Part shown: positions 25-48,993 of the stretch, piece after piece | How positions within the stretch are numbered: position 1 is the first letter of the stretch | Layout: each line of letters begins with the position of its first letter | DNA from: a virus | Taxonomy: Duplodnaviria; Heunggongvirae; Uroviricota; Caudoviricetes | Virus record (IMG/VR): IMGVR_UViG_3300021407_000008 | DNA length: 64,000 bases | Reading direction: 5' to 3' (one strand) | The notes under the pieces: generated by a model | What the model was told of the DNA's origin: nothing | What the model saw: the letters and a program-made list of their open reading frames with translations, nothing else | Databases searched by the model: none | Translations under genes and position numbers: made by a program

Positions 25-226
25 CAGTTTCTTCGCTTTGTTACGCGATTGCTCGCGGTTAGGTCGTTTCCGCCTAACTCTACATGTCGCCATGCAGGCC
101 GGACTATATCTTCTCCGTTGTCTAGAGTCTCGCGTGTAGTCTCTACGGACTCGCCGCTTTCGCGGATTGCCTCGGTATTGTCCACTTGGGATGTCCACCG
201 ATATAGCGAGATTTTATAATCGCAAG
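25..226 (-). mobile_element. Group I intron 2 (3' portion, P7-P9) in the major capsid gene; 5' splice site probably lies inside the 3' end of ORF 227..970
   Basis: The minus strand carries the R element GTAGAGACTACA (plus about 139-150) and the S element GAAGATATAGTCCGG (plus 100-115), matching the consensus R CAGAGACTA and S AAGATATAGTC. P9-like hairpins follow (GTTAGGCGGAAACGACCTAAC and CGCGAGCAATCGCG). A terminal G sits at position 25. Confidence 0.55.
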
Positions 227-982
227 TCATGCTGCTTTCACGATTAGCTGATAGTTACGTTGCTCTGGGATTTCTGTAGCTCCAAGAGAAACGCTAAATA
301 CAGCGTCTTGTCCGACAACATAGGTTCCGTAGCCGGTTTTGGTGCCGGATGGGAAGGCTGCGAAAGTTGATGCAGTGGTAGTCTCAATGAAACGAGCACC
401 CGCAACATCAATTACTCGATAGCCCTGTACGCCGCGCATCAATTCCTCGCTGCCTTCTTTGTGGTATTTCAAAATGTCAATAACGCCACCGGCGGTATTA
501 TCATTTAGTAAATCAAAGGCGGCAAAGGGGTGAATGATCCCGGCGAACAACCCATCCGTCTGCGGTCTAACGTCTGCGCCACGAAGGCTCATAACGGCCT
601 GACGTGTCAACGAAGCGCTAAGGAATTCGTTGTCGGTACAGGAAATTACGATGGTGGAATCGGCGGTAGCCTCAGCTTCAAACTCGGTACGGGCTAGGGT
701 GTTTGCTGTTAGAGCAGCACGGTAGCCCATCTCGGCAGCGGTATTTTCGACGATAGGATCAATTGCGGTTTCAACGAGAATGTCAGAGAACGAAGCGAAG
801 TCAAAATATTGGTTGACAGCGACGTTTCTGATAGAAGTCGTTGGGTTGATACCAGTTCCAACGGTACCTTCGGTACCGGGAGTGGTATTAGCCGCAAATA
901 GATCGTAACCGTACAACTGAATAACGCGACCGTTACGGTCTGGAAGCTTACGACGGCTGGTTACGGCCACGAACGGGAGATT
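227..982 (-). CDS. Major capsid protein, internal exon (HK97-fold-like). The exon begins at position 982 directly after the intron's terminal G. The frame stays open to the stop at 227, which probably lies inside intron 2.
   Basis: 247-aa ORF with an HK97-family-like ...IIHPFAAFDLL... motif. It is too short for a complete major capsid protein. It is flanked by group I intron cores. An in-frame stop lies 5 codons upstream of the GTG, consistent with an intron 3' end. Confidence 0.5.
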   Translation of the reverse strand, partial: NLPFVAVTSRRKLPDRNGRVIQLYGYDLFAANTTPGTEGTVGTGINPTTSIRNVAVNQYFDFASFSDILVETAIDPIVENTAAEMGYRAALTANTLARTEFEAEATADSTIVISCTDNEFLSASLTRQAVMSLRGADVRPQTDGLFAGIIHPFAAFDLLNDNTAGGVIDILKYHKEGSEELMRGVQGYRVIDVAGARFIETTTASTFAAFPSGTKTGYGTYVVGQDAVFSVSLGATEIPEQRNYQLIVKAA

Positions 983-1581
983 CAGTTAATCCCAACGGTT
1001 TCCCGATGGGCTGGACTATATCTTCCAAGACTTCTAATCTCGGCCAAGCTCTTAGTCTCTGAGGACTCGCCAAATCGTTCCTTCTCTGCCACGATAGCTA
1101 AATCTTCTTCGGTATATCGCCTCGCCTCGTTACCGCCTTTCGTATATTTCATACGATTGACGATAAACCTGCGAAGGATCGCCGCTTCTGCTATCTTGCG
1201 ACCTATTAGATTCTTTTCTACTAGGTCAAGGAGTTTGAGCATGTCTTCGTGGTGATGAACTACTACTTGGAAACATCCATTGGAGTTTTCGCGGATATGG
1301 TTTCTTATTCCGTTCTCGTCTTGAATGTTTACCACGTACCAGATTAAAGCTGGATCGCTATTACTGAATCCAATCTCTGATCTGAGTTCAAATTTGCCAT
1401 TTTTTCTTGGATTTCTCCAAAGACTAAAATGGCCCTCACCACTATACAAACCGCCCAACATAATTCGGATTGCCTGCTGATTGTCTAATTCCACAGATTT
1501 TCCCTTTTTAGGACTGTAGACTCTAAAGATGTTCCAGCATACCGCTTGGTTTATATTAAGGCCAATTCCTGTTCGGTTCAA
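982..1581 (-). CDS. LAGLIDADG homing endonuclease (intron-encoded; C-terminus overlaps the intron P7-P9 core)
   Basis: Motif ...IMLGGLYSGEGHFSL... matches LAGLIDADG. TTG start. The stop TGA overlaps the intron's terminal G. Confidence 0.7.
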   Translation of the reverse strand: MNRTGIGLNINQAVCWNIFRVYSPKKGKSVELDNQQAIRIMLGGLYSGEGHFSLWRNPRKNGKFELRSEIGFSNSDPALIWYVVNIQDENGIRNHIRENSNGCFQVVVHHHEDMLKLLDLVEKNLIGRKIAEAAILRRFIVNRMKYTKGGNEARRYTEEDLAIVAEKERFGESSETKSLAEIRSLGRYSPAHRETVGIN

Positions 1582-1700
1582 GCCTTAAGATTCTCGACTG
1601 CGACCCGCAAAACGTGGGTCAAGAATCAATCTACGACCGGGTCAATTAATCGTAGTAAATGCTAGCTAAATGCGTTAGTCCTGCTGTAGTCGTTAAAACT
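983..1700 (-). mobile_element. Group I intron 1 in the major capsid gene, carrying a LAGLIDADG homing endonuclease ORF (5' boundary uncertain, somewhere in 1582..1917)
   Basis: Minus strand has R TCAGAGACTAAG (plus about 1041-1052), S GAAGATATAGTCCAGCC (plus 1008-1024), then a P9-like GNRA hairpin and a terminal G at 983. There is a 336-nt ORF-free region 5' of the homing endonuclease gene. The segment is homologous to the intron 2 core. Confidence 0.55.
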
Positions 1701-1917
1701 GAAGCTGGCTGATACGACATTTAGTTCACCTATTGCTGATGAGATGACAAGCTCCTATAGCCGCGCTATCTTGTGTTGCGGGATCGCCGCTCAAAGTAAG
1801 ATTGGCCAATGTGCTTGCACTAACACTCCCAACGGGCTATTGCTTCATATACTGGGCAATTTTGGTTTGGTCGGCCAAAATGCCTAATAAACTAGGCAAC
1901 CTATCCGTGTTCTGGAG

Positions 1918-3725: not shown

Positions 3726-4060
3726 TCCACGCCCGTAAACGCAACCACAACCCAATCGTTCTCGACTACGCCCGTTTGCATGTTGAAATGAACGTTCTTT
3801 CCGTTTAACGTGGCACTACCGCCAGAGTTTGAGTTAGCCACTGGCGGCTGAAACCAGTAGTCGCCAGTTTTGGTGTTGGTCATCACAAAAAGGCCAGCAT
3901 CTACGTCGTAAGTAAGCGCCCATAGTATCCTGCCCTTTTGTTCGCAGTACACCGTAGTGGTCGGGTACGTTAAATGTACTTGGCCACTCGCGGAGCATGT
4001 GCGACCAAAGGAAAATGTTGAGGCGAAAATAACGGCGGCTGCTATTAGCGTTTTAATCAT
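3722..4060 (-). CDS. Small secreted protein
   Basis: True start is probably MIKTLIAAAVIFAS... (signal peptide). ATGA overlap with the upstream gene. Confidence 0.45.
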   Translation of the reverse strand: MIKTLIAAAVIFASTFSFGRTCSASGQVHLTYPTTTVYCEQKGRILWALTYDVDAGLFVMTNTKTGDYWFQPPVANSNSGGSATLNGKNVHFNMQTGVVENDWVVVAFTGVD

Positions 4061-4407
4061 CCAATTATCCCCACGTAATCTCCGTCTGTGTCGGCGGGAT
4101 TTAGCTGCACGTTTTCTAGAATTCTCTGTACCGATTCCGGCTCCAGTGTTTCTACGGCATTCATTATTCCTTCGTGCCACGTCTCGGCAAATGAAACGAT
4201 GCCAGAAAGTCTAATCTGTGCGGCCCATAGCGCATCCTTTTCCATGGGTGTGCTCATAAATTGTTCTTTAAGCTGGGCTATGCGATGGTTCCGGAGGTCT
4301 AGGTAAACGGCCCATCCCGGAGAACGAATCAAGTCTGCTAAATGTCTAGCTTTTTCAAACTCACGGATTATCGCTAATTCTGTTTCGCTTAGTTGCGTGT
4401 CTGACAT
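4057..4407 (-). CDS. Hypothetical protein
   Basis: 116-aa ORF translationally coupled to its neighbour. Confidence 0.45.
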   Translation of the reverse strand: MSDTQLSETELAIIREFEKARHLADLIRSPGWAVYLDLRNHRIAQLKEQFMSTPMEKDALWAAQIRLSGIVSFAETWHEGIMNAVETLEPESVQRILENVQLNPADTDGDYVGIIG

Positions 4408-4421: not shown

Positions 4422-5345
4422 CTATTGGCTATTTGGTTTGTGGCCGGTTTCTAGAGCTAGACGCAAACCGTTCGGGCCTACGTGTTGAGCGTATTCTGGA
4501 TGCTTGTGCAAAAGTGCGGCTATAACTTTTCCGTCAGACACGCCGCGATAGGCCGGAAATTTAGTTCTAAGATTTTCCAGAACTACGTTATGGTCGCCAG
4601 ATTTAGACATGCTAGGTTTAAGTATATTGCCTTCCCTCCATCCGGTTGGCGTACTTGAATCCACTACAGAGAAAGCACCCTTGCGAAACATGGAATTAAG
4701 TTTGGCTGGATCATTCGTATTGTCTTTTACAGCATCGCGGCTATAACGACTACGAACAGAATCAAGAAAGGCCATATCGCCAGCGGGCGGTCTACTGCCA
4801 GCATGGCTCTGTACAAACGCCCTAGCGGAGTCTTCGTTGTTCTTGACCATCTCCGCTTGCTGTTCGGTTCCATATGCAGTGAATGGTTTCGTGCTCCCTT
4901 TGTCGTAAGAATATTGTGCTGGTCTGTTGGGGTCTAGCGATTTAGCCGGAACGCCGCTTCCAGTAAATTTATCATTTGTCAGGTTTTGCCAAACGTGCGT
5001 GGCTTCATGTAGTTCGTTTTCAGAAAGTTCTTTTGTGCTGGAATCGGTTGCTAGGAAAACTACGGTTGGAAGGTGTTTTGACAAGACATATCCGCGAAGA
5101 TTGGTCCCGGAAGCACCGTTGTCGAAAGCAATTCTTATGTCGGATGGGCTGATGCTATCCCCAAATGTTTTCTTGATCGCGTTCGCTTCATTGTCTGTAA
5201 GCGGACGAGATTGAAGCGCGATACTCTTTATTGTTTCTGGACCAAGACGAGCAAGCGGAGAACCTATGTGTGGCGCAGTTGTGTCTATGGAATTATCGTC
5301 TGGCATTGTCACCGCCAGAATATACAAGGCTAAAGATTGGCTCAT
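4422..5345 (-). CDS. HExxH-motif protein (possible zinc metallopeptidase or head maturation protein)
   Basis: LHEATHVWQ contains HExxH. Located in the head module between the portal and scaffold-like genes. Confidence 0.4.
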   Translation of the reverse strand: MSQSLALYILAVTMPDDNSIDTTAPHIGSPLARLGPETIKSIALQSRPLTDNEANAIKKTFGDSISPSDIRIAFDNGASGTNLRGYVLSKHLPTVVFLATDSSTKELSENELHEATHVWQNLTNDKFTGSGVPAKSLDPNRPAQYSYDKGSTKPFTAYGTEQQAEMVKNNEDSARAFVQSHAGSRPPAGDMAFLDSVRSRYSRDAVKDNTNDPAKLNSMFRKGAFSVVDSSTPTGWREGNILKPSMSKSGDHNVVLENLRTKFPAYRGVSDGKVIAALLHKHPEYAQHVGPNGLRLALETGHKPNSQ

Positions 5346-6102
5346 CCCAGCCCGCAGCCGTATCGTTGAATTGCAGTAGATATTTTGGGTTGGAGTGCGC
5401 GTTTATTTTGGCAATTTGCAGCAAGAAATCTTCTCGTCTTAAATCAAGCTTCATTCTGTTGCATACTCCACAACACGGAACAACATTATCAGGCGTGTAT
5501 CCTTTGTCGGAGTCAATTCTATCTATTCCGTTGTACTTGAACTTATGAAAGGCTCCCTTAAAGAGATTCGACGGCGGGGAATCACAATAATAGCAATTCT
5601 TTTCTAGGAGGGAATGAAATAGCTCATCAGACAATTCCCAACACAAGTTTCTGTGTTTGGCTCCTTTTACGTAGTGGCGTTTGGCGGCTCTGCGACCACC
5701 CTCTTTAGGCGGAAGAAAGGTTTTGAATTTGTAACATCCGCAACTTCTAACGTTATCCATCACTAAATTGTTGCACGATACGGTTGTTTCTTTGCCGCAA
5801 ACACACATACAAAGCCACCTAGAATGGTGGGTTCTATCTAATCCGGCGTAGGCAATAACGGTCAAATCTCCGAATGTTTGTCCTGATAGGTTTTTAACGC
5901 GAGAAGGAATTTCTGGCAATGGAAACCTCTCCCACCGCTTTAATTTAATACGAAGGTTGTTGCACTCCTTGCAAAGTTGTCGCTGTCTATAGGAATAGAA
6001 ATACTTAATCGGCATCCACAGACCTTCGCCATTATTGTGAGCGGAACACCATTGCATTTCTCCACTCGGAGTTTTAAGTATTGGTATCGGGGGAGTTGGC
6101 AT
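5293..6102 (-). CDS. HNH homing endonuclease
   Basis: ...NGIDRIDSDKGYTPDNVVPCCGVCNRMK... matches the HNH motif, plus an N-terminal Cys cluster. Abuts the portal gene. Confidence 0.65.
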   Translation of the reverse strand: MPTPPIPILKTPSGEMQWCSAHNNGEGLWMPIKYFYSYRQRQLCKECNNLRIKLKRWERFPLPEIPSRVKNLSGQTFGDLTVIAYAGLDRTHHSRWLCMCVCGKETTVSCNNLVMDNVRSCGCYKFKTFLPPKEGGRRAAKRHYVKGAKHRNLCWELSDELFHSLLEKNCYYCDSPPSNLFKGAFHKFKYNGIDRIDSDKGYTPDNVVPCCGVCNRMKLDLRREDFLLQIAKINAHSNPKYLLQFNDTAAGWDEPIFSLVYSGGDNARR

Positions 6103-8234
6103 TATCCCTGCATTATACCAAGTGGATCGTTGTCTTGGCCTTGGTTTTGTTGCGACTGGCTACCACCCTGCGCATTTTGTTGTGCGTCCAGCAGTGTTTT
6201 CAATAAGTCGATTTTGTGGTCTGGTGTCATGCTGGTTTCTTCAAGCAGCGAGTGGATGATTTTTGTGCCCGATTGCGCCAAACCCTTAGCTTCAATCTCT
6301 CCAAGGTGGGCTTGGTGCTGCTGGTTAATTGTAGACATCTGTTGCGCGAATTCATTCTTCTGTGCCAAGCGTTGTTTATCCTCTGCGGTTAAGTCGGTAA
6401 TGATTTCTTGTTCTCCGGGCCATTCGGAAGCGTCAAATAACTGCTGCGCGAATTTGCCAAAGTTAACTTTTTTGCCTTGCTCTTGTAAAGATTCCAGAAC
6501 TGGCGACTGGCTCAAGAATTGCATAAGCGGCAGAGCTATTTGCATCATAGCTGACTTTGCCCGCATCTTGGTTCCGGCCTGCATACTAAACTTTACATTC
6601 GCGTTCTTAACTTCAATTGCATCCCCTTCGTAGGCTTTCTCTAGTTCTTCATCCAGAACTGCCCGCATGTCCTCAATCGGTAGCCAGCGAGAATTCATTT
6701 CGTGAACTAGTTCTAAGAATGGGACGATAAACAAGCGAGATACGAAATCTACAAAATAAGCCGACCTAGCACCTACGCCAGCGGCTAGAGTATTAATTCC
6801 TGACGCTGTTCTGCCGATAGACGACGGATGTGACATTGCTCCTTGTGTAACAATTTCATTTGCGCCAGAACGTCTTTGCGCTCGCGAATCAGATGCTTCA
6901 ACTTCGGTAAACGCATCTATAATCGCGGGCGGATACTGAATCATTTGCACGCCCTTGTCATCGTCGGAATCAATGATTCCACCCGGACGTAGGCGCAACT
7001 GCTGAGTTGGAGTATTCGCGCCACGCTTGCGCAGGAACGTACCGGATAAACGTAGGGCTAAGTCATCTAAGCGGGAATTGATTACGCCTTGCTGTAGCCG
7101 CTGCTCGCCAGAAAGTAACTTGGTAATCCCAATTCCGTACCAGCTATCCAGAACATCTATTGGCGGAACGGAGAAGTAATTAATACACCCAAATTCATTG
7201 ATATCGTTTTTTAGGCAAAGCTTGCGATTTAGAACCACAATAGAACGAGTCGCGGTGGTGTATTCCAAAAGTTCTAATGGTTGCAAGTTTGGGTCTTCTG
7301 AAGGCGACTGCCAGCGCGGCATTGCCTTGAATTCCATGTTGATATCGAGAGATGACACGCCAGTATTAAGAACTGATGTTGTAGAGCGGCCCTCTAGTAC
7401 AGAACGTTCTGCGGATTCTTTTGGCGGAGTGAACAACGATTGCAGGAATTCGGTAGATGGAATGTTGTACCCCGGCTGGTTGCGCAACTGTTCCAAATCT
7501 TCCAATGTTGGGTACATGCGGTGAATCACAAACTTTGCCTTACGGATATCTGGAATACGCAGGTCGGGAGAAACCAGAAGGTGCCTAATATGTATCTTTT
7601 CCAGACAAGGCGCGTTAACTTCGTATTCTTCTAGTTCCTCAATAACTTTTCGCGACTCTTCCGTTGGCGTGATAATCGACATGCCCATACCAACGTTGCG
7701 TTGTTCGGGCTGGCCAGCATATTTATAAACTCTGCGAAACCTTTTTTCGCGCTTCCATCCGGCCTTCCAAACACCCATGCCATACTGCAAAGATTCTTTC
7801 AGGCCAAGCCGCAACTCTTCCTCGAAATTCATGTCTTTGAGTTGCTTGCTGATTAACTGGGTAACCGCACGGGCTGCATCTATTTTCGTTTGTGCTCTAG
7901 GCGTGCAGGAAAATGGCGGGTCGTCACCGTAGAGCGCTTGCATGTATTGCGGGAGCAGGGATTCGATATGCTCAAGTGTTAATGGAATACCTAGTGAGGA
8001 GCGCGGTACACTGGACCCCTCCCAAAACGCGGTTGGCATTCTAAAGAGATATAATCTGTCGTCTCTATCCCACTCTACAGTTAATCCCTTGGAAAGCGTG
8101 TACCACTCTGATCTTTGTAGGTCTTTTAGAACAAGGTTTAACGCAACTACATCTTCGGGTAATTGTGGTGCCAAGGGCATTTGCTCTGGCAATATTTCAT
8201 GGGCGAGGGAAATTGGACTTTGGAGTAATCCCAA
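6102..8234 (-). CDS. Putative portal protein
   Basis: 710-aa ORF immediately downstream of the terminase/homing-endonuclease genes in the canonical head-module position. No motif was verified. Confidence 0.45.
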   Translation of the reverse strand: MGLLQSPISLAHEILPEQMPLAPQLPEDVVALNLVLKDLQRSEWYTLSKGLTVEWDRDDRLYLFRMPTAFWEGSSVPRSSLGIPLTLEHIESLLPQYMQALYGDDPPFSCTPRAQTKIDAARAVTQLISKQLKDMNFEEELRLGLKESLQYGMGVWKAGWKREKRFRRVYKYAGQPEQRNVGMGMSIITPTEESRKVIEELEEYEVNAPCLEKIHIRHLLVSPDLRIPDIRKAKFVIHRMYPTLEDLEQLRNQPGYNIPSTEFLQSLFTPPKESAERSVLEGRSTTSVLNTGVSSLDINMEFKAMPRWQSPSEDPNLQPLELLEYTTATRSIVVLNRKLCLKNDINEFGCINYFSVPPIDVLDSWYGIGITKLLSGEQRLQQGVINSRLDDLALRLSGTFLRKRGANTPTQQLRLRPGGIIDSDDDKGVQMIQYPPAIIDAFTEVEASDSRAQRRSGANEIVTQGAMSHPSSIGRTASGINTLAAGVGARSAYFVDFVSRLFIVPFLELVHEMNSRWLPIEDMRAVLDEELEKAYEGDAIEVKNANVKFSMQAGTKMRAKSAMMQIALPLMQFLSQSPVLESLQEQGKKVNFGKFAQQLFDASEWPGEQEIITDLTAEDKQRLAQKNEFAQQMSTINQQHQAHLGEIEAKGLAQSGTKIIHSLLEETSMTPDHKIDLLKTLLDAQQNAQGGSQSQQNQGQDNDPLGIMQG

Positions 8235-8264
8235 ACTAGTTCACGCTCGTTGTATTTTGGGCAG

Positions 8265-8291
8265 AAAAAAGCCGTGAGTGCTTCACGGCTT
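8265..8291 (-). terminator. Rho-independent terminator (minus strand)
   Basis: Hairpin AAGCCGTGA-AGCAC-TCACGGCTT followed by TTTTTT on the minus strand. Confidence 0.45.
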
Positions 8292-8315
8292 AAATTGTAG
8301 GGGAGTTGTAATTAA

Positions 8316-9053
8316 CTAAGCGACTTGGGTTCGCTTTTCTGCTGCCTTAACGCGCTTATATTCTAGGTGACAGTCCTTGCATCTGGTAGCGTAATGCCAG
8401 CGGCCCAGTTCTGGGAAGCGTTTGCTTTTAACCCACGATCTAACCATCTGGTCAATTGGTTTTGTAGCTCCACAAAAGGTACATGTTTTTTCTTCTGGTT
8501 GCGGCTTGGGAACATATGGCCCCATCTTGGCCAGTGCTGCATCACTGCCAATCTTGGCCAATGCCGACCTTTCCTCTGGAGACAGTTTTTCTTGACGCTT
8601 TTGGTTAGCCAATGCTGACAGCGCTGATTTATATTCTGGGGTTCTAGCGGCAGCAGCTTCGCGCATTCTCTGTTTGGTTTCCTCTGGCTTTGGTTTTCCC
8701 TTGGAAATGTTTCTAAGTTTTTCTTTTGTTGCTTCGCTGGTTACTCGCCCGAGTTGTCCGTCGCCGCCGATGGTTGCGTTGTATCCAAATTCTTTCATGC
8801 TGGATTTGTAGATAGCGACATAGTGTTTCTCTAATCTATTAAGGTCTTTCCTGTCTGCTACCCTTACTAGCGACTTAATCGTAAAGGCGCTCCTGCCGTA
8901 TTTCTTTATGGCAAGAAAAAGAGGAGCATGTATACCGGCATAGTGTTCAGCCTTCCAGAACTTATTCATCAAGTAATGATTGAGGTTTTCCTTTACAGTT
9001 TGGCCAACGTAGACCTTGCCGCTTACGGTACAGGTAATGAGATATATGTGCAT
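8316..9053 (-). CDS. GIY-YIG homing endonuclease (free-standing, between the terminase and portal genes)
   Basis: IYLITCTVSGKVYVGQT matches the GIY-YIG motif. NUMOD-like K-rich repeats and a C-terminal zinc ribbon are present. Confidence 0.75.
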   Translation of the reverse strand: MHIYLITCTVSGKVYVGQTVKENLNHYLMNKFWKAEHYAGIHAPLFLAIKKYGRSAFTIKSLVRVADRKDLNRLEKHYVAIYKSSMKEFGYNATIGGDGQLGRVTSEATKEKLRNISKGKPKPEETKQRMREAAAARTPEYKSALSALANQKRQEKLSPEERSALAKIGSDAALAKMGPYVPKPQPEEKTCTFCGATKPIDQMVRSWVKSKRFPELGRWHYATRCKDCHLEYKRVKAAEKRTQVA

Positions 9054-9151: not shown

Positions 9152-9727
9152 ATGGAAAATCAATCAGCAGAAAATCACATCATAGTTTGCGGCCAAGTGT
9201 TTCCGTGGAAAGCGAAAGCGCCATATGTAATGAGCGGCCATTCCATCCTTGGAGCGCTTGAGTACAACCAAGAACAAGAAGTAGTAAAGTGTCACGAATG
9301 CGGCGACTGGTTTAAGGAATTGGGGGTTCACGTATTCCGCGCTCATGGGATTAAAGCCGCAACCTACAAGGCGGAGCGCGGCATTTCTTTTGGTAGTTCA
9401 CTTTCTGCAATAGGATCACGCAAACTACGCGCTAAAAACCTACGTCGTCGTGGGTTAGTCGGCAAGCATACTTTCAAGAAGGGCCATCAACCGCACGGCA
9501 ATGGCAGCTTTTCGCCAGAAGTCAGGAACCTGCACATGACGTGCAAGGCTCAGCTAATGCAGAAAGCGAGAGATTTAGCTATGCAATTGGGGAGGACTCC
9601 AACGGCAGACGAACTACGCGCTGCCGGAATGCACCATGGGGTTATCAGAAAGATGTTCGGGTTAAGTATTCGCGATTATTTGCTTAGCCTTGGAATCAAG
9701 CCAAGGCCAAAAGGTGTACGGAAATGA
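9152..9727 (+). CDS. Ros/MucR-like C2H2 zinc-finger protein (plus-strand moron)
   Basis: VKCHECGDWFKELGVHVFRAHGI resembles the Ros/MucR CxxC...HxxxxH finger. Confidence 0.4.
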   Translation: MENQSAENHIIVCGQVFPWKAKAPYVMSGHSILGALEYNQEQEVVKCHECGDWFKELGVHVFRAHGIKAATYKAERGISFGSSLSAIGSRKLRAKNLRRRGLVGKHTFKKGHQPHGNGSFSPEVRNLHMTCKAQLMQKARDLAMQLGRTPTADELRAAGMHHGVIRKMFGLSIRDYLLSLGIKPRPKGVRK

Positions 9728-9879
9728 CCGATATAGACCATTGCCCAAGATGCGGAGAATATCTGTCAGATGAAATGGGCCATATGTGTCCTAGCGACAA
9801 ATTTGAGTCAGACAAATTCGCCTCGTTGCAAGAATGTTTAGAAACAATACGCGCCGCACTCGATTTCGCACTTCCATAA
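9724..9879 (+). CDS. Small zinc-ribbon protein
   Basis: MTDIDHCPRCGEY...HMCP. ATGA overlap with the upstream plus-strand gene. Confidence 0.3.
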   Translation: MTDIDHCPRCGEYLSDEMGHMCPSDKFESDKFASLQECLETIRAALDFALP

Positions 9880-9913
9880 ACCGACAATTATTAACAACGA
9901 CAAAGATTTTTCT

Positions 9914-10027
9914 ATGGGCAATAATCCGATTGTAATATGTGACCAATGCGTAGAAAGAATGAGGAAAGCATTGGGACTAGGTAAAGACGAATCGGTTCCT
10001 ACGTCGTTCCAGTTGTGGGGCCATTAA
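9914..10027 (+). CDS. Small zinc-ribbon protein
   Basis: MGNNPIVICDQCVERM...; 37 aa. Confidence 0.25.
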   Translation: MGNNPIVICDQCVERMRKALGLGKDESVPTSFQLWGH

Positions 10028-11748
10028 CCCACCAAGCCAGCGGAAAGCCCGTACTCATCCCCATACATCTGCGCTCCGCCAATCTCAACAGGGCCGTAGT
10101 TGTTGACTGTGGTTGTTACGCCCATGCCGTGGTATCTAAGCAGTAAACTGACAGCCCGAGGTATGTCGTCGTGTCCATACCCGCCGCCAAATCGCGAGAA
10201 CTCCGTGTACAGTTCCGCTAAAAATGGCAAATCTTGACAAAAGAATAGTTTTCCCATGGGCGGCAACGGTTGGTCGTGTTGCTGCAAATTGATAAGCGCC
10301 TGCTGCTGCGCTTGTAAACTGTTTTGTATAACTGGTGCTTGTACTTGCGGCTTACCCAACAGCGTAGCCAAAGACAGAATCTCGTTAACCGTAGCATCCT
10401 TTTTGTTGGATACTTTCAGCCAGTCAATCGGAATCATTAACCCCAACTCGCGTTGGCGCATGTTTAATCCCGGCCCTAACAGTGTAGCCCCTACCGCCTG
10501 CTCAATTCCCATACGCTGTATTGGCCACTTTTTCCATGCAGAAATGATGTTGTCTATGATCTGCGGCGGATTCCAGCGGCCACGGAATAAGTCAATGATG
10601 TAGATATTCTTAAGTTCGTCAAACGCCCCGATGGCACCTACCGTGTAATCATTCCTACTAGATTGCTTGTAAGCTAAGTCCCAGACACCAAAGATAACCG
10701 AGTTTAGTGGAACTTTCTGGCGCGGGATAGTTTGCTTCTGTAGTAACTCTATCGGGAAGTAATCGCGCTCTGTCCCGATAGGGTGGTTCATATATTGTGC
10801 ATTGAAGTGGGTAGGATTTTCTTCCCATGCGTCTTGCAGGTTAAACTTATCCGCGTTCTTTATTGCTTCTTCTGGGGTGTCAGAGTTAATGCAGAATTTT
10901 TCGGGAAATAGGATTCCATCTTTGTTAAATAGTTTACCGTTTCCATCGGGCATTACGGCTGGATAAACGGCGATCTTCCACCCTTTAATGACTTCATGTA
11001 ATTGCTGGCCAAAGCGCATCTGTTCTGACAGTCCTAGTCGATCCAAAATCTTTCCATAGAGACACGCGAAGTTGTAGAACGTGCCGATTATTTGCGTGTA
11101 TCCTCCGGGATTAAGCAATGGTCTAGTCGCCTGCCAATCGTCCGCAACTCTGTCATTTTGGTCTACCCGTTGATTTGGGTTAATGCGGCTGTTGACTTCT
11201 GTAATTACGTCGTCGCCAATTCGGATGTCGTAGTGCGTCGAAGCCTTCACGCTATCTAGGGTAGAAATGCTTAGCGTCGGTTCTCTGCGGATTCTTGTAC
11301 GCACGTTGCGCGGTAGCCAGAATTCACCCTTGGCTCCAAACTCTCTAACGTTATCGTTTGGGATGTAGTCGGGGTAGAGTGCGCGGAAATCTGTGCAGGA
11401 AAGAAATATCTGCTTCAATTCTTCCACCATTCTAGTTGCAACATCTTGCGAACCAGAAAGCATGAGAATGGTTACGTTGGGGAAATTCAACATCCACGAA
11501 ATGCAATCCACCAGATCAAGGCTAGTTTTAAAATGGCCGCGTGGAGCCATTAACAACCGATTTTTGATAATGTCTTGCTGTGAAAATGGCTTGTTGAAAT
11601 TCTTTTGGACGAAGAAATCGCAGAACGGCCTATGGGTACGTTCGGTTAAATCGGGATAAACCGCACCTAGGATTTGCGATGCGAGAAAGAAGTTGTCACG
11701 CTTGCCGCGTAAGGCTACATCGGAAAGGACAAGACCCACACTACTCAC
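10024..11748 (-). CDS. terL: Terminase large subunit
   Basis: Walker A-like APRGHFKTS. 574 aa. Sits at the head-module start. Confidence 0.8.
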   Translation of the reverse strand: MSSVGLVLSDVALRGKRDNFFLASQILGAVYPDLTERTHRPFCDFFVQKNFNKPFSQQDIIKNRLLMAPRGHFKTSLDLVDCISWMLNFPNVTILMLSGSQDVATRMVEELKQIFLSCTDFRALYPDYIPNDNVREFGAKGEFWLPRNVRTRIRREPTLSISTLDSVKASTHYDIRIGDDVITEVNSRINPNQRVDQNDRVADDWQATRPLLNPGGYTQIIGTFYNFACLYGKILDRLGLSEQMRFGQQLHEVIKGWKIAVYPAVMPDGNGKLFNKDGILFPEKFCINSDTPEEAIKNADKFNLQDAWEENPTHFNAQYMNHPIGTERDYFPIELLQKQTIPRQKVPLNSVIFGVWDLAYKQSSRNDYTVGAIGAFDELKNIYIIDLFRGRWNPPQIIDNIISAWKKWPIQRMGIEQAVGATLLGPGLNMRQRELGLMIPIDWLKVSNKKDATVNEILSLATLLGKPQVQAPVIQNSLQAQQQALINLQQHDQPLPPMGKLFFCQDLPFLAELYTEFSRFGGGYGHDDIPRAVSLLLRYHGMGVTTTVNNYGPVEIGGAQMYGDEYGLSAGLVG

Positions 11749-46619: not shown

Positions 46620-46702
46620 TGGTGCCGCTGGGGAGATTTGAACTCCCATGCCCGAAGGCGCTGCATTCTAAATGCAGTATGTATGCGTTCCATCACAGCG
46701 GC
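46620..46702 (-). tRNA. tRNA-Leu(TAG), class II
   Basis: 7-bp acceptor GCCGCTG/CAGCGGC. Anticodon loop TTTAGAA. Long variable arm, T-loop TTCAAAT, CCA encoded. Confidence 0.55.
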
Positions 46703-46704
46703 AT

Positions 46705-46787
46705 TGGTGCCAATGGAGAGACTTGCACTCTCACGCCTTGCGGCAACGGGGCTTAAATCCGTCGCGTATTCATTCCGCCACATTGGC
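46705..46787 (-). tRNA. tRNA-Leu(TAA), class II
   Basis: Acceptor GCCAATG/CATTGGC. Anticodon loop TTTAAGC. GNRA variable arm. CCA encoded. Confidence 0.55.
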
Positions 46788-46793
46788 AAAACT

Positions 46794-46884
46794 TGGTGGG
46801 TGCGGATCGAATTGAACGACCGAGGCTCACATGGAAGCCACTGGTTTACAGCCAGTCCGAGATTCCCAACATCTCAACGCACCC
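46794..46884 (-). tRNA. tRNA-Tyr(GTA), class II
   Basis: Acceptor GGGTGCG/CGCACCC. Anticodon loop CTGTAAA. Long variable hairpin. CCA encoded. Confidence 0.5.
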
Positions 46885-46889
46885 AAAAA

Positions 46890-46978
46890 TGGCAGAGGGT
46901 GGAGCATCGAAGCCCTAGCCCATCCCTGAGCTACCCACGGGTTCAAACCGCGTCGCCAGCCACTCTAGCGGCACCCTC
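46890..46978 (-). tRNA. Class II tRNA, possibly Ser(TGA); fold partly unresolved
   Basis: Acceptor AGAGGGT/ACCCTCT plus CCA. Candidate anticodon loop TTTGAAC. T-arm is ambiguous. Confidence 0.35.
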
Positions 46979-46979
46979 T

Positions 46980-47070
46980 GTGGCGGAGAGAGCGTGTGCT
47001 GACCACGCGTGCCCCATTTCTGGAAGCTCATCTTTAGCAAAGATGCGGTTTTACCGTTCACCCATCTCTC
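46980..47070 (-). tRNA. tRNA-Ser(GCT), class II
   Basis: Acceptor GGAGAGA/TCTCTCC. Anticodon loop TTGCTAA. CCA encoded. Confidence 0.5.
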
Positions 47071-47100
47071 CGTTTTAAAATTGTCAAAGACCTTAAACTT

Positions 47101-47185
47101 TGGTAGGCCAGAACGGACTTGAACCGTTACGCCTCGCGGCAGCGCATTTTGAGTGCGCCGTGTCTGCCATTCCAACCACTGGCCT
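47101..47185 (-). tRNA. tRNA-Leu(CAA), class II
   Basis: Acceptor AGGCCAG/CTGGCCT. Anticodon loop CTCAAAA. GNRA variable arm. T-arm ACGG-TTCAAGT-CCGT. Confidence 0.55.
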
Positions 47186-47271
47186 AAATTTTTACAGGGA
47201 TAAATAATACGAGCGCAGCGCGTATAGGCTGCTACTGAGTCGCAATGAGAGTGATAGAGTCATTGAAGTTT

Positions 47272-47347
47272 TGGGAGCAAGCCTTGGAGTCGAACCAAGT
47301 ATCCTTGCGTTATGAGCGCAAGATGAATTCCGTTTCACCCTCTTGCT
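47272..47347 (-). tRNA. tRNA-Met(CAT) (or Ile2/fMet)
   Basis: T-arm CTTGG-TTCGACT-CCAAG. Anticodon loop CTCATAA. CCA encoded. Confidence 0.5.
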
Positions 47348-47354
47348 TTGATGA

Positions 47355-47543
47355 TTAGAGCACGGGCACTGAAGTTGTGTCAAGTTTTTTAGCAATAAAA
47401 CCTCTCTTGGCTACTAAATATTGTTGCAGTAATTCTCTATAGTGAACTTGGCTTCTGGCGGTTCCGTACTTTTTCTTGCAACCAAGAATATAGCGACGAT
47501 AGGCTAACATTACATGTTCTCGGTTTGGGTGTGGATGGCTCAT
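47355..47543 (-). CDS. Small basic protein
   Basis: 62-aa ORF between tRNA genes. Confidence 0.3.
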   Translation of the reverse strand: MSHPHPNREHVMLAYRRYILGCKKKYGTARSQVHYRELLQQYLVAKRGFIAKKLDTTSVPVL

Positions 47544-47708
47544 TAGTATTTGGCGGTTGGCGGCTTATTCCACGCTCTTGTGGGCGGTACCGCTGCCCGA
47601 ATTACCGGCTGCAACTAGTGGTCGATCTACCGGTAGGGTCATCCCGTTTTGTTCCCTTTAACGACCCATGCCACTATCGGTGAAACCCGCCGCCAAGAAG
47701 ATTAGATT

Positions 47709-47886
47709 ACTCTGGCCACTCTCGCGGTGCAAGTTCTATGTTGGATTGTTCTAGCCATTGGGCATATGGTAACGGTTCTTTTACGGTGCGACAATAACGC
47801 TTGTAGCGTCCAATGGCAATACGTTCTCGCAGAACTACCTTGCCTAGCTTCTTGCGCCATTCTTGCTGAATTGGACGTGCTCTCAT
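47709..47886 (-). CDS. Small basic protein (about 59 aa)
   Basis: Manual translation gives MRARPIQQEWRKKLGKVVLRERIAIGRYKRYCRTVKEP... Confidence 0.25.
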
Positions 47887-47907
47887 AAAGTTAAACGGGA
47901 TAGCTTT

Positions 47908-47975
47908 CTGGCATACGCGGAATCGAACCGCGAACTCGGGTATCTCCGAATGTTGCCATTAACACTATGCGCCCT
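47908..47975 (-). pseudogene. tRNA-like element, possibly a degenerate tRNA
   Basis: Canonical T-arm CGCGG-TTCGATT-CCGCG, but the acceptor is imperfect and the anticodon loop has 6 nt. Confidence 0.3.
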
Positions 47976-48014
47976 ACTCGCTATCCCTATCGCGATTCTA
48001 TAGCATCGCGAATA

Positions 48015-48088
48015 CTGGTCCGGGTGGACGGAATTAAACCGTCATCTTCTGATCCCAAATCAGAGGCTCGATCTTCCAGCTACACCCG
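48015..48088 (-). tRNA. tRNA-Pro(GGG)
   Basis: Acceptor CCGGGTG/CACCCGG. Anticodon loop TTTGGGA. T-arm GACGG-TTTAATT-CCGTC. CCA encoded. Confidence 0.5.
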
Positions 48089-48193
48089 GAAACTTTTCTA
48101 ACGGAAACGTCGCGGGCCGAATCCGCGCTTTTGTAAATCCAACTTCATGGCCAGCAAGCATACCGCGTCCGGTTTCTCGTTGTCCGTTAGTAT

Positions 48194-48271
48194 TGGTGAG
48201 CAGTCTCCGAGTCGAACGGAATTCTGGTCGGCTTCAGCGACCCGCTAAATGACCCCACTAGCTCACTGCTC
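48194..48271 (-). tRNA. tRNA-Phe(GAA)
   Basis: Acceptor GAGCAGT/ACTGCTC. Anticodon loop CTGAAGC. T-loop TTCGACT. CCA encoded. Confidence 0.55.
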
Positions 48272-48353
48272 AAATTTGGTGGACCTGGACGGTTATCCTC
48301 CGTCTGCCTCCGCATTGCAAGTGCGGCGCTCTCGTAAGTGAGCTACAGGCCCA

Positions 48354-48433
48354 TGGGGTGGACGGTCGAAGTTGCATCGACAAAAGCACGGTTCCACAGA
48401 CCGGCCCGACATTCTGATAGTCGGCACGTCCAC
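48354..48433 (-). tRNA. tRNA-His(GTG)
   Basis: Acceptor GTGGACG/CGTCCAC with discriminator C. Anticodon loop CTGTGGA. CCA encoded. Confidence 0.45.
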
Positions 48434-48436
48434 AAC

Positions 48437-48508
48437 TGGAGCCGACTGTGCGTGATGATCGCACTCCGCAATGGGTACAAGCCGCTGCGCCCTCCCGAGG
48501 GAGTCGGC
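48437..48508 (-). pseudogene. tRNA-like element with no resolvable anticodon arm
   Basis: Perfect acceptor GCCGACT/AGTCGGC plus CCA. T-arm GTGCG-ATCATCA-CGCAC. The middle region does not fold canonically. Confidence 0.3.
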
Positions 48509-48513
48509 AAAAC

Positions 48514-48588
48514 TGGAGCCGCGAGAATGAATCCAACATTCGTAGGTTGCTTACCGAGCAACTGAACTAAGCACTGTTCTATCGCGGC
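48514..48588 (-). tRNA. tRNA-Thr(GGT)
   Basis: Acceptor GCCGCGA/TCGCGGC. D-stem GAAC/GTTC. Anticodon loop TCGGTAA. CCA encoded. Confidence 0.55.
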
Positions 48589-48590
48589 GG

Positions 48591-48662
48591 AGCCGGTACG
48601 GCGAATTGAGCGCCGATAACGAGTTTACGAATCTCGCATTCTTCCACTTGAATTATACCGGC
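48591..48662 (-). tRNA. tRNA-Thr(CGT) (no CCA encoded)
   Basis: Acceptor GCCGGTA/TACCGGC. D-stem ATTC/GAAT. Anticodon loop TTCGTAA. Confidence 0.45.
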
Positions 48663-48669
48663 CAAAAAC

Positions 48670-48744
48670 TGGAGAGCCGTGAGTGAATTCAACACTCGTA
48701 TAAGGTTTTGCAGACCTCAGCCTAAAGCACTCGGCCAACGGCTC
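48670..48744 (-). tRNA. tRNA-Cys(GCA)
   Basis: Acceptor GAGCCGT/ACGGCTC. Anticodon loop CTGCAAA. CCA encoded. Confidence 0.5.
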
Positions 48745-48748
48745 AATA

Positions 48749-48823
48749 TGGAGCGGTCGGCGGGAATTGCACCCGCGACGTTCTGTCTGGCAGACAGACA
48801 TTCTCGCTGCTGAATTACGACCG
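48749..48823 (-). tRNA. tRNA-Gly(GCC)
   Basis: Acceptor GCGGTCG/CGACCGC. D-stem ATTC/GAAT. Anticodon loop CTGCCAG. CCA encoded. Confidence 0.55.
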
Positions 48824-48993
48824 CAATTCTTCCTGCGCTTGTTTGCGTGTTGCGCCCTCCTTAATTCTGCGCTGAATATATATCTCGCGCATATATTTCA
48901 TTGTTTGCGCATTGTCTATGGAGCGAACATCCGAATCTGCCTCGGAACCAAGAGAGTGGAAATCTCTGATGCTGCTAATTACACCATGCTCGC

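What the first reader, a model, noticed from the sequence alone, without database searches (positions are those of the whole stretch)
5293..9053. Homing-endonuclease hot spot around the portal and terminase genes, and unusual homing-endonuclease density overall
A free-standing GIY-YIG endonuclease (8316..9053) sits between terminase and portal. An HNH endonuclease (5293..6102) abuts the portal 3' end. The window also holds the intron-borne LAGLIDADG gene, HNH genes at 30369, 35521 and 60856, and an HNH-AP2 fusion at 59694. That makes at least seven homing-type nucleases from four families in 64 kb. The ORF ends near 5293-5345 overlap, suggesting a recent insertion.
Basis: partly seen in the sequence, partly recalled or inferred. 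Interest (0 to 1): 0.5.

Follow-up and report, generated by a model that had tools for sequence, protein, structure and literature searches.

The report
Homing-endonuclease hot spot in phage head genes
An uncultured ~103-kb soil phage carries several selfish "homing" nuclease genes wedged between its DNA-packaging, portal and capsid genes; this is a well-known kind of phage parasite, but the capsid gene also holds an odd 41-base insert that looks like an intron without its own catalytic core.

Summary
The core observation holds. Profile searches and comparison with related phage contigs show real, insertion-polymorphic homing-type nuclease genes on both sides of the portal gene. A GIY-YIG gene (8316..9053) lies between terminase and portal. 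A PacI-like HNH gene (5293..6102) starts on the portal stop codon. Relatives have this junction empty, or holding the same GIY-YIG gene, decayed remnants of it, a different NUMOD3 gene, or an HNH-AP2 gene. It is therefore a true hot spot.

Of the seven claimed nucleases:
- Five are well supported: LAGLIDADG, PacI-like HNH, GIY-YIG, HNH_3 and HNH_3-AP2.
- One (35521) is a probable small HNH. It is syntenic in the nearest relative, so it is not shown to be mobile.
- One (60446..60859) has no support.

The nucleases belong to three superfamilies, not four. The claimed 53-nt ORF overlap is really 14 nt, and nothing shows the insertion is recent. The density, one gene per 11-13 kb, equals that of phage T4 and is below that of phage CB7. 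This makes the window a new member of a known kind.

One unexpected extra concerns the capsid gene. Besides three group I introns, it carries a 41-nt coding gap with its own covarying P1/P10 guide and a terminal G but no catalytic core. The gap is conserved in three lineages.

The parts
10024..11748 (-). Large terminase subunit gene (terL)
   Evidence: phrog_38 2e-44. tblastn matches annotated terL genes, with Tunturiibacter phage Tunturi_3 the best at 25%. 32-79% identical in 14 related loci.
9724..10027 (+). Decaying small zinc-ribbon ORF, convergent with terL. It reads as a 51-aa ORF (9724..9879), and the rest of the homologue continues in another frame.
   Evidence: The intact homologue is 115 aa in L001 (6763..7110, -) and 93 aa in L063. 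The window has a frameshift and a small insertion relative to these. No family match.
9152..9727 (+). 191-aa DNA-binding protein (MucR/Ros zinc finger plus homing-endonuclease-associated repeat). No nuclease domain. Transcribed divergently from the GIY-YIG gene.
   Evidence: Pfam ROS_MUCR 23.7 bits and HNH_repeat 24.4 bits, both just below their cutoffs. Homologues carry PF05443 and PF18780. Absent in L001 and present in L063. Copies 79% identical lie in otherwise unrelated phage contigs L051 (next to an HNH_3 gene) and L052.
8316..9053 (-). Free-standing GIY-YIG homing-type endonuclease (245 aa) with a NUMOD3-like middle part and a C-terminal zinc-finger region
   Evidence: Family matches. 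Alignment A5 keeps Y4, Y15, H37, E75 and N92, but the I-TevI R27 column is F or L in this subclade. Present in L001 (66% aa) and L063 (76%); remnants in L002 and L003; absent elsewhere.
8269..8291 (-). Terminator-like hairpin plus T-run between the GIY-YIG stop codon and the portal start
   Evidence: The hairpin is alignable in L003 and in part in L001. This is a consensus match only; function is inferred.
6102..8234 (-). Portal protein gene (SU10 type)
   Evidence: Pfam SU10_portal 1e-32. 52-94% identical in 18 IMG/VR loci.
5293..6102 (-). Free-standing PacI-like HNH (beta-beta-alpha-metal) endonuclease, 269 aa. It has an N-terminal Cys-rich repeat module.
   Evidence: Invariant pattern CxxC...NGIDRxD...GY...N...CCxxCNxxK. 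It replaces about 220 bp of unrelated spacer present in L001. Absent from 18 relatives. Present at the same site in L064. GC 0.436 against an ORF mean of 0.485.
4422..5306 (-). Accessory 294-aa gene with an HExxH motif seen by eye. Its true start is the ATG at 5306, not 5345.
   Evidence: Homology with L001 begins at M14. Gene callers give 294 aa. Present only in the L001/L013 subclade; in other relatives the portal is followed directly by the 4057..4407 homologue. No family hit.
983..1580 (-). Group I intron in the major capsid gene. It carries a single-motif (I-CreI-like) LAGLIDADG gene (ORF 982..1491).
   Evidence: LAGLIDADG_3 24.9 bits against a cutoff of 22.5. 30 of 41 homologues match LAGLIDADG_3. 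The profile against the PDB hits the I-CreI/I-MsoI class at 4.5e-14. P1 has a U.G pair and the intron ends in G. P1 covaries across three lineages. P3, P8 and P9 covary by eye. Rfam gives only 16.8 bits because the ORF splits the core. Absent from 18 relatives.
1608..1648 (-). 41-nt coding gap ('mini-intron') between capsid exon 1 (1649..1720) and a 27-nt micro-exon (1581..1607)
   Evidence: Stop codons in all three frames. Contains a contiguous 13-nt P10-P1 guide complementary to the ligated exons, and ends in G. Homologous inserts of 53 nt (L055) and 46 nt (L056-58) keep the guide. P10 shows three different Watson-Crick pairs at one position. The sequence is identical in two assemblies.
34..239 (-). 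Small group I intron without an ORF in the capsid gene
   Evidence: Rfam Intron_gpI 39.5 bits, E 9.5e-9. In-silico splicing restores colinearity with the L015 capsid protein. A further intron (50 bits) lies just beyond the window start, at L053 13183-13369.
30369..30833 (-). Free-standing HNH_3 endonuclease (154 aa)
   Evidence: Pfam HNH_3 8e-12 and phrog_826 7e-47. A clean insertion between the stop codon of 30817..31092 and a conserved hairpin. Absent at this site in L020.
35521..35865 (-). Small probable HNH-domain protein (114 aa). Not shown to be mobile.
   Evidence: Motif CCICG...FEH...N...AHLRCNSIKG seen by eye. phrog_5718 7e-4. PDB matches at E about 0.07 to HNH-domain proteins. Conserved at 75% in the same position in L020. 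GC equals the genome average.
59694..60263 (-). Free-standing HNH_3-AP2 endonuclease (189 aa)
   Evidence: Pfam HNH_3 27.6 bits plus AP2 31.1 bits, and phrog_99 7e-33. Absent between the same neighbours in L026. Paralogues (31-44%) lie at other sites in L003, L008, L013, L018, L027, L030 and L047.
60446..60859 (-). ORF claimed as HNH ('60856'); not supported
   Evidence: No hit in Pfam, PHROGs, NCBIfam or the PDB. No homologue in any fetched locus.

Best explanation
The window comes from an uncultured ~103-kb phage with 27 tRNA genes, whose nearest isolate is an Acidobacteria phage. The intergenic junctions around its most conserved late genes (terL, portal, capsid) are landing sites for free-standing homing endonuclease genes.

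Each nuclease gene is a compact insert packed between a neighbour's stop codon and the next gene or terminator, so it rides on the host operon's transcription.

The likely mechanism is the 'intronless homing' described for the T4 seg and mob genes. In a mixed infection, the nuclease cuts a site in or near the adjacent conserved gene of a relative that lacks it. Recombinational repair then copies the nuclease gene, and flanking markers, from the carrier genome.

Over time the copies degenerate and are lost, which leaves the patchwork seen among relatives: empty, intact, remnant, or replaced by another family.

Shown here: nuclease-family membership, exact insertion boundaries, and presence/absence and replacement at the same sites. 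Inferred: cleavage activity, target sites and biased inheritance.
For: FAMILY ASSIGNMENTS
- GIY-YIG.
- PacI-like HNH.
- HNH_3 and HNH_3-AP2.
- LAGLIDADG.

INSERTION MAPPING
- The HNH gene replaces a 220-bp spacer of L001, with TAATG and 14-nt overlaps at its two ends.
- The HNH_3 gene sits between a stop codon and a conserved hairpin.
- The terL-portal junction exists in at least six states among relatives.
- The same HNH family recurs at the same portal-3' site in L064, a relative whose portal segment is 72% identical.
- HNH-AP2 paralogues are scattered at different sites in relatives.

DECAY STAGES: the L002 and L003 remnants.

SELECTION: the intact GIY-YIG ORF is kept although dS against L001 is saturated, and its dN of 0.26 is about 5 times that of the portal.

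COMPOSITION: the four insertion-polymorphic genes have GC 0.435-0.447, against an ORF mean of 0.485 with sd 0.036.

PRECEDENT: T4 free-standing endonucleases lie in intergenic regions between conserved genes and cut at a distance (PMC2988022).
Against: - No cleavage site, co-conversion tract or near-identical transferred copy was found. All relatives are 72-79% identical or less at the DNA level, so no recent homing event is documented.
- The GIY-YIG subclade lacks the arginine equivalent to I-TevI R27, so it may be catalytically altered.
- The 9152 gene has no nuclease domain.
- 35521 is syntenic and may be a resident gene.
- The clustering of 3 of 5 nucleases in the first 10 kb is only modestly unlikely by chance. 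My own binomial estimate is about 0.03, and it was made after seeing the data.
Confidence: 0.8

Rival explanations
1. The HNH gene next to the portal is a packaging accessory, like HK97 gp74, which stimulates terminase cleavage. On this reading it is not a homing element.
For: HNH genes adjacent to terminase and portal genes are a known component of some packaging machines (Kala et al. 2014, as cited in PMC7344957). The gene is co-oriented with the portal and translationally coupled to it.
Against: It is absent from 18 relatives that share the same terL and portal, including the closest one (94% portal identity). It therefore cannot be an essential part of this packaging machine. It belongs to a PacI-like family with N-terminal repeated Cys-rich modules that occurs in many contexts. 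It is AT-richer than its neighbours.
Confidence: 0.05
2. Some of these genes are no longer nucleases. They would be decayed or domesticated DNA-binding proteins. Candidates are the GIY-YIG gene lacking the catalytic arginine, the MucR/HNH_repeat gene and the small HNH at 35521, retained for regulation or another host benefit.
For: The R27 column is F or L in all four members of the GIY-YIG subclade. The 9152 family never carries a nuclease domain in 29 homologues. 35521 is syntenic with normal GC. Truncated remnants exist in L002 and L003.
Against: Five of the six conserved GIY-YIG active-site positions are intact. A conserved lysine sits next to the missing arginine. The whole N-terminal domain is kept across saturated synonymous divergence.
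Confidence: 0.3
3. The nucleases are kept mainly because they help the phage compete with co-infecting relatives or satellites (marker exclusion, interference), rather than as pure parasites. This is compatible with the main explanation and differs only in who benefits.
For: T4 endonucleases drive marker exclusion of T2 (PMC2988022). An intron endonuclease of phage PhiPA3 interferes with a co-infecting phage (PMC11620839, abstract). In this window the nucleases flank essential late genes.
Against: Nothing in the sequence separates benefit from selfish spread. The remnants and losses in relatives fit neutral or parasitic turnover.
Confidence: 0.3
4. The ORFs are chance reading frames or artefacts of assembly.
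For: The window is a metagenome assembly. Two of the seven claimed genes lack good support.
Against: Five genes have significant profile matches. Their homologues exist in independent samples. Two assemblies of the region, one in ENA and one in Logan, are identical.
Confidence: 0.02

Closest known systems
Free-standing seg (GIY-YIG) and mob (HNH) homing endonucleases of phage T4 (Edgell, Gibb & Belfort 2010, PMC2988022)
   Same: The nuclease genes sit in intergenic regions between genes conserved among relatives, with presence/absence polymorphism. Density is similar: T4 has 15 in 169 kb, and the window has 5-6 in 64 kb. T4 segD also lies next to the capsid gene (between genes 23 and 24).
   Different: The phage lineage is unrelated (SU10-type portal; nearest isolate an Acidobacteria phage at 25% aa). 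No cleavage or inheritance data exist. The HNH here is PacI-like rather than mob-like. The GIY-YIG subclade lacks the R27 arginine.
I-TevI / TIGR01453 'group I intron endonuclease' family
   Same: The N-terminal GIY-YIG domain scores above the NCBIfam cutoff. The layout is modular, with a NUMOD3-like linker and a C-terminal zinc-finger DNA-binding region. The length is 245 aa.
   Different: It is free-standing, not intron-borne. The R27 equivalent is missing, and there is a 6-residue insertion in that loop.
PacI restriction endonuclease (PDB 3LDY)
   Same: The HNH beta-beta-alpha-metal core is flanked by two CxxC pairs. The motif GxDRxDSxxGYxPxN...CxxCNxxK aligns over residues 29-122 of PacI (E 2.8e-9).
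   Different: The protein has extra N-terminal Cys-rich repeats. No partner methylase is evident. The context is a phage intergenic insertion. Similarity is limited to the catalytic core.
Cluster J mycobacteriophages (Pope et al. 2013, PMC3706429) and Pectobacterium phage CB7 (PMC7344957)
   Same: In the Cluster J phages the structural-gene operon is interrupted by many free-standing HNH genes. LittleE has a capsid-gene group I intron carrying an I-CreI-like LAGLIDADG gene. CB7 has 23 homing endonucleases, including one in a terL intron.
   Different: Here the capsid gene holds three group I introns plus a core-less mini-insert. The nucleases flank terL and portal rather than interrupting them.
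Phage Twort orf142 (three group I introns in one gene, with exon skipping; Landthaler & Shub 1999, listed in the references of PMC11878797) and the T4 gene 60 50-nt coding gap next to mobA (recalled from memory; PMC2988022 lists mobA at 60.1/39)
   Same: One phage gene carries several self-splicing introns. A short untranslatable gap lies inside an essential gene, next to a homing-endonuclease element.
   Different: The 41-53-nt gap here has a group I-type guide (P1 with U.G, P10, terminal G). It lacks the matched take-off and landing codons that gene 60 bypassing uses. I found no report of a core-less group I intron in one full-text search plus a check of one paper it returned.

Membership tests
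GIY-YIG homing endonuclease (I-TevI-like) | Profile match to the GIY-YIG catalytic domain above the curated cutoffs | tested here: met
   TIGR01453 58.8 bits against 56.05. Pfam PF01541 23.0 against 22.6, which is marginal. phrog_314 1e-28.
GIY-YIG homing endonuclease (I-TevI-like) | The two tyrosine motifs (GIY...YIG) and the conserved His, Glu and Asn | tested here: met
   The motifs read HIY...YVG. H37 is nearly invariant, and E75 and N92 are invariant, in alignment A5, which includes I-TevI typed in from memory.
GIY-YIG homing endonuclease (I-TevI-like) | Conserved catalytic arginine (I-TevI R27) | tested here: not met
   The column is F or L in the window, P0122, P0123 and P0124. A conserved Lys precedes it, and the loop is 6 residues longer. 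The I-TevI sequence and residue numbering are from memory.
HNH / His-Me finger nuclease (PacI-like branch) | Beta-beta-alpha-metal core motif with flanking zinc-binding Cys pairs, supported by a profile match to solved HNH nucleases | tested here: met
   C170, C173, N191, G192, D194, R195, N206, C211, C214 and K218 are invariant in 33 sequences. The profile hits PacI (3LDY) at 2.8e-9 and the HNH endonuclease 4H9D at 1.3e-4.
HNH / His-Me finger nuclease (PacI-like branch) | Match to a Pfam or NCBIfam HNH model | tested here: not met
   No Pfam or NCBIfam hit at E <= 0.01. None of 120 listed homologues carries a precomputed Pfam domain. The family is simply not covered by these libraries; PHROGs does annotate it as HNH.
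LAGLIDADG homing endonuclease (single-motif, I-CreI class) | LAGLIDADG motif and domain profile match; similarity to homodimeric I-CreI-type enzymes | tested here: met
   The motif reads MLGGLYSGEGHF. LAGLIDADG_3 scores 24.9 against 22.5 for the trimmed ORF. 30 of 41 homologues match LAGLIDADG_3. The PDB profile hits reach 4.5e-14 and include I-CreI and I-MsoI.
Free-standing homing endonuclease gene (functional definition) | The gene is present or absent at the same locus among otherwise colinear relatives | tested here: met
   GIY-YIG, PacI-like HNH, HNH_3 and HNH-AP2 all show this. It is not met for 35521.
Free-standing homing endonuclease gene (functional definition) | Site-specific cleavage of the endonuclease-free allele and super-Mendelian inheritance with co-conversion of flanks | not testable with these tools
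   This needs enzyme assays or mixed infections. No co-conversion tract is visible because all relatives are 79% or less identical at the DNA level.
Group I intron (the LAGLIDADG-bearing insert 983..1580) | P1 with a U.G pair at the 5' splice site, terminal G, P10, and core helices P3, P7, P8 and P9 supported by covariation | tested here: met
   P1 is 8 of 8 paired in three lineages, with compensatory changes. P3, P8 and P9 covary and P7 is invariant; these were read by eye. The 3' core matches the Rfam consensus GAAGAUAUAGUC.
Group I intron (the LAGLIDADG-bearing insert 983..1580) | Rfam RF00028 score at or above gathering | tested here: not met
   16.8 bits against 50. The roughly 450-nt ORF splits the core. 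The two ORF-less introns in the same gene score 39.5 and 50 bits.
Group I intron (the 41-nt insert 1608..1648) | Own catalytic core (P3-P9) | tested here: not met
   The insert is only 41-53 nt. Apart from the guide, its interior is not conserved in sequence or length.
Group I intron (the 41-nt insert 1608..1648) | Guide pairing with both exons (P1 with U.G, and P10) and a terminal G | tested here: met
   P1 is 7 of 7 paired in all lineages. P10 is 5-6 of 6 paired, with G-C, A-U and C-G at the same position in the three lineages. All copies end in G.

The most novel reading that the evidence does not exclude
The major capsid gene contains a core-less group I 'mini-intron'. It is a 41-nt insert here, and 46 or 53 nt in two other lineages.

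The insert keeps only three intron features: an internal guide (P1 with a U.G pair at the splice site), a contiguous P10 that covaries with the third base of the next Arg codon, and a terminal G.

A translated 27-nt micro-exon follows it. After the micro-exon comes a complete LAGLIDADG-bearing group I intron.

The reading is that the mini-insert is excised by group I chemistry, borrowing the catalytic core of the neighbouring intron: one ribozyme core serving two guides in tandem. It could have arisen by deletion of the core of an older intron.

Alternatives not excluded are ribosomal bypassing of the gap, as in T4 gene 60, and skipping or separate translation of the first exons.
Probability: 0.4. 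Interest if true: 0.8.

Novelty: new member of a known kind. Interest (0 to 1): 0.4.

Why it matters
The hot spot itself adds a well-resolved natural example of the homing-endonuclease life cycle: invasion, maintenance, decay, and replacement by another family at one site. It comes from a poorly known clade of ~100-kb soil phages. It also flags a PacI-like HNH family of more than 200 proteins that Pfam and NCBIfam do not cover.

These nucleases are candidate rare-cutting enzymes. Their targets would lie in conserved terL, portal or capsid sequences.

The capsid-gene mini-insert, if it is spliced, would matter more. It would show that a group I intron can survive losing its ribozyme core by depending on a neighbour, a form of intron hyper-parasitism. 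The same arrangement would be a natural case of one ribozyme processing two splice-site pairs.

Tried and rejected
- Megablast of 4400-12000 against INPHARED phages found no match. Relatives had to be found through proteins instead.
- Rfam at gathering threshold on the whole window found only tRNAs. The introns appeared only in local E-value searches.
- My regular expressions for LAGLIDADG and GIY-YIG motifs found nothing, because both motifs are variant here.
- A Pfam scan of about 65 further ORFs, run as concatenated packs, found no additional homing-type nuclease. PHROGs on ten small Cys-rich or unknown ORFs found nothing.
- dN/dS could not be estimated because dS is saturated. Only dN was used.
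- A metagenome scan with the LAGLIDADG protein confirmed no relatives. An exact search for the mini-insert in IMG/VR found none. Relatives came instead from the representative-protein search plus contig look-ups.
- More distant LAGLIDADG-intron copies (L059-L062) sit a few codons away in a divergent capsid gene. I could not place their splice sites consistently, since no terminal G fits, so I left them out.
- I first read the 9152 gene as having 'decapitated' the small ORF. L063 shows a 93-aa version starting at the same MTDIDHCP that is intact. The window copy is therefore frameshifted, not beheaded.
- Ribosomal bypass of the 41-nt gap was considered. A stop codon follows the take-off codon, as in T4 gene 60, but no matching GAU or GAC landing codon precedes the micro-exon.


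Full report
CONTEXT

The window is almost entirely transcribed on the minus strand and carries 27 tRNA genes. It has no near DNA match among 50,697 deposited phage genomes. Its terL and portal are only about 25% identical to the nearest isolate, Tunturiibacter phage Tunturi_3, where the two genes lie side by side. The same sequence occurs in two public assemblies: a 103,165-bp ENA contig and a 36-kb Logan contig. These two are identical to each other and differ from the window at one base. IMG/VR holds 18 related portal loci at 52-94% amino-acid identity, three of them from ~100-kb contigs.

THE TWO GENES IN THE FLAGGED INTERVAL

The gene at 8316..9053 is a GIY-YIG endonuclease. It passes the NCBIfam 'group I intron endonuclease' model (58.8 bits against 56.05). 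It just passes Pfam GIY-YIG (23.0 against 22.6) and matches PHROG homing-endonuclease families at 1e-28. An alignment with 16 homologues, the L013 NUMOD3 ORF and I-TevI retains both tyrosines, the histidine, the glutamate and the asparagine. The column of I-TevI R27 is F or L in the four closest members, next to a conserved lysine. Activity is therefore likely but not certain.

The gene at 5293..6102 has no Pfam or NCBIfam hit. It belongs to a family of more than 200 unannotated proteins. Their invariant pattern, CxxC...NGIDRxD...GY...N...CCxxCNxxK, gives a profile that matches the PacI restriction endonuclease at E 2.8e-9 and a solved HNH endonuclease at 1e-4. PHROGs also labels the family HNH. 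It is thus a PacI-like HNH nuclease.

INSERTION MAPPING AROUND THE PORTAL

Downstream of the portal, homology between the window and its closest relative L001 runs to the portal stop codon. It resumes exactly at ATGCCAGACGAT, the start of the next gene. L001 has 220 bp of unrelated spacer in between, where the window has the 810-bp HNH gene. The HNH ATG overlaps the portal stop codon (TAATG). The HNH stop codon lies 14 nt inside the next gene, whose true start is at 5306. Two gene callers agree on 294 aa. None of the 18 relatives has this HNH gene. A short contig, L064, from a relative whose portal segment is 72% identical, has a full-length copy (61% identical) at the same place, again overlapping the portal stop codon.

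Upstream of the portal, the terL-portal junction takes the following states in relatives:
- A spacer of 3-32 bp, effectively empty, in eight loci.
- A spacer of about 190 bp in two loci.
- A small unknown ORF in L004.
- The same GIY-YIG gene in L001 (66%) and L063 (76%).
- Truncated remnants in L002 and L003. In L003 only the C-terminal half survives, behind a PAPS-reductase-like fragment.
- A different 230-aa NUMOD3 gene in L013, with a GIY-YIG-like N-terminus seen by eye.
- An HNH_3-AP2 gene immediately upstream of the portal in L008 and L018.

This is the pattern expected of a homing-endonuclease cycle at a hot spot. Synonymous divergence between the window and L001 is saturated for every gene. 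The GIY-YIG gene has dN 0.26 against 0.047 for the portal, yet it stays intact. It has been maintained for a long time and was not recently acquired.

WHAT ELSE LIES BETWEEN terL AND THE GIY-YIG GENE

It encodes a MucR/Ros-type zinc finger plus a 'homing endonuclease associated repeat'. Both score just below their Pfam cutoffs, but both domains are annotated on homologues. No member of the family has a nuclease domain. The gene is absent from L001 and present in L063. Copies 79% identical occur in otherwise unrelated phage contigs, once right after an HNH_3 gene. It is therefore itself horizontally mobile. A small zinc-ribbon ORF follows it. That ORF is intact in L001 (115 aa) and L063 (93 aa) but frameshifted in the window.

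THE OTHER CLAIMED NUCLEASES

- 30369..30833 is a clear HNH_3 gene. It is inserted between a stop codon and a conserved hairpin, and it is absent at that site in L020, which belongs to the closest relative's contig.
- 59694..60263 is an HNH_3-AP2 gene. It is absent between the same neighbours in L026, while paralogues lie at other sites in seven related loci.
- 35521..35865 has a plausible HNH motif but only weak statistical support. It is conserved in synteny at 75% in L020 and has average GC content. It may be a resident HNH protein.
- 60446..60859 has no support of any kind.
- A Pfam scan of the remaining ORFs found no further homing-type nuclease.

The tally is five solid genes plus one probable gene, from three nuclease superfamilies. 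Together they occupy 4.8-5.4% of the window, or one gene per 11-13 kb. T4 has 15 in 169 kb, 11% of its coding potential (PMC2988022). Pectobacterium phage CB7 has 23 in 143 kb (PMC7344957). The density is high but not exceptional.

MECHANISM AND RIVALS

The best explanation is intronless homing, as described for the T4 seg and mob genes (PMC2988022). The nuclease cuts a conserved neighbouring gene in a co-infecting relative that lacks it, and repair copies the nuclease gene across. Family membership, insertion boundaries and sporadic distribution are shown here. Cleavage and biased inheritance are inferred.

A packaging role for the portal-adjacent HNH gene, in the manner of HK97 gp74, is unlikely. 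The closest relatives have the same terL and portal and lack the gene. Partial loss of nuclease function, and a benefit in competition between phages, both remain open. Neither conflicts with the main reading.

THE CAPSID GENE (outside the flagged interval, but cited in the finding)

The LAGLIDADG gene is confirmed as an I-CreI-class enzyme. It sits in a 598-nt group I intron (983..1580). The intron's P1, with a U.G pair at the splice site, covaries across three lineages. Its P3, P8 and P9 also covary, and it ends in G.

The same gene has a 206-nt ORF-less group I intron at 34..239. Another lies just beyond the window start. Joining the exons in silico gives a protein colinear, without gaps, with intron-free capsid proteins over 321 residues.

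The surprise is a 41-nt insert (1608..1648), located 27 nt upstream of the LAGLIDADG intron:
- It has stop codons in all three frames.
- The 27-nt stretch after it encodes RVAVENLKA. This matches the relatives exactly, and every nucleotide difference is synonymous. That stretch is therefore translated.
- The insert begins with a contiguous 13-nt guide, GACCCG-GUCGUAG. The guide pairs with the ligated exon junction CUACGAU|CGGGUC, with a U.G pair at the 5' junction. The insert ends in G.
- Two further lineages have inserts of 53 and 46 nt at the same place (L055, and L056-58 from three samples). Their interiors are unrelated, but they keep the same guide and the terminal G.
- The P10 part tracks the third base of the following Arg codon. 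The exon reads CGG, CGA or CGC, and the guide reads C, U or G.

These are the hallmarks of a group I 5' end and 3' end with nothing in between. I propose that the neighbouring intron's core excises it. Ribosomal bypassing is less likely because there is no matching landing codon. One full-text literature search and a check of one paper it returned turned up no precedent for a core-less group I intron. This part needs RNA evidence.

VERDICT

The hot-spot interpretation is supported by comparative data. The details on nuclease count, family count, the ORF overlap, recency and exceptional density need correction. As a homing-endonuclease hot spot, the window is a new member of a well-known kind. 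The capsid mini-insert is the item that deserves follow-up.

Noticed in passing
window 1608..1648 (-), with exon 1 at 1649..1720 and the micro-exon at 1581..1607; also L055 82-134 and L056 239-284: A 41-nt untranslatable gap in the major capsid gene has a group I-type P1/P10 guide and a terminal G but no catalytic core. It is conserved, with covariation, in three lineages at 41, 53 and 46 nt.
   Followed up: partly
window 34..239 (-), 983..1580 (-), and L053 13183-13369 (just beyond the window start): The capsid gene carries three group I introns in about 330 codons. Relatives carry introns or inserts at other positions: L047 has a LAGLIDADG ORF near residue 165, L043 has an Rfam group I intron at 68 bits, and L043 and L032 have in-frame inserts of about 62-64 aa.
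   Followed up: partly
window 9152..9727 (+); L051 6001-6588; L052 940-1437; L063 709-1284: A MucR-zinc-finger plus HNH_repeat protein without any nuclease domain is shared at 79-90% identity by otherwise unrelated phage contigs. In L051 it directly follows an HNH_3 gene, so it may be the DNA-binding partner of a two-gene endonuclease, or a mobile regulator.
   Followed up: partly
window 32981..34387 (-) and 34776..35573 (-): A Ro60/TROVE-vWA homologue (TROVE 1.8e-12, vWA_Ro60 5e-7) and a DUF5131 protein (8e-56) lie here. tblastn finds no homologue of either in the closest relative, L020, which has a shorter (about 1.5 kb) stretch between the same flanking genes.
   Followed up: no
window 4422..5306 (-); L001 10339-11232; L013 10135-11097; L003 10143-11108: An accessory 294-320-aa protein with an HExxH...EQQ motif, reminiscent of DUF4157 by eye with no profile hit, follows the portal only in one subclade. 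Its C-terminal ~55 residues are duplicated as a separate ORF in L003 and L013.
   Followed up: no
window 46620..54262 (-): There are 27 tRNA genes in two arrays, covering most amino acids.
   Followed up: no
L003 7178-7639: A PP-loop (PAPS-reductase-like, SFSGGRTSG) ORF fragment has replaced the catalytic half of the GIY-YIG gene. It runs out of frame into the retained C-terminal half.
   Followed up: no
window 5293..6102 and proteins P0002-P0120: The PacI-like HNH family has more than 200 members, some in Nocardia and Bacillus genomes. It has 1-3 copies of an N-terminal module, L.G..FG.LTV...W.C.C.CG...SCGC, and no Pfam or NCBIfam model.
   Followed up: partly
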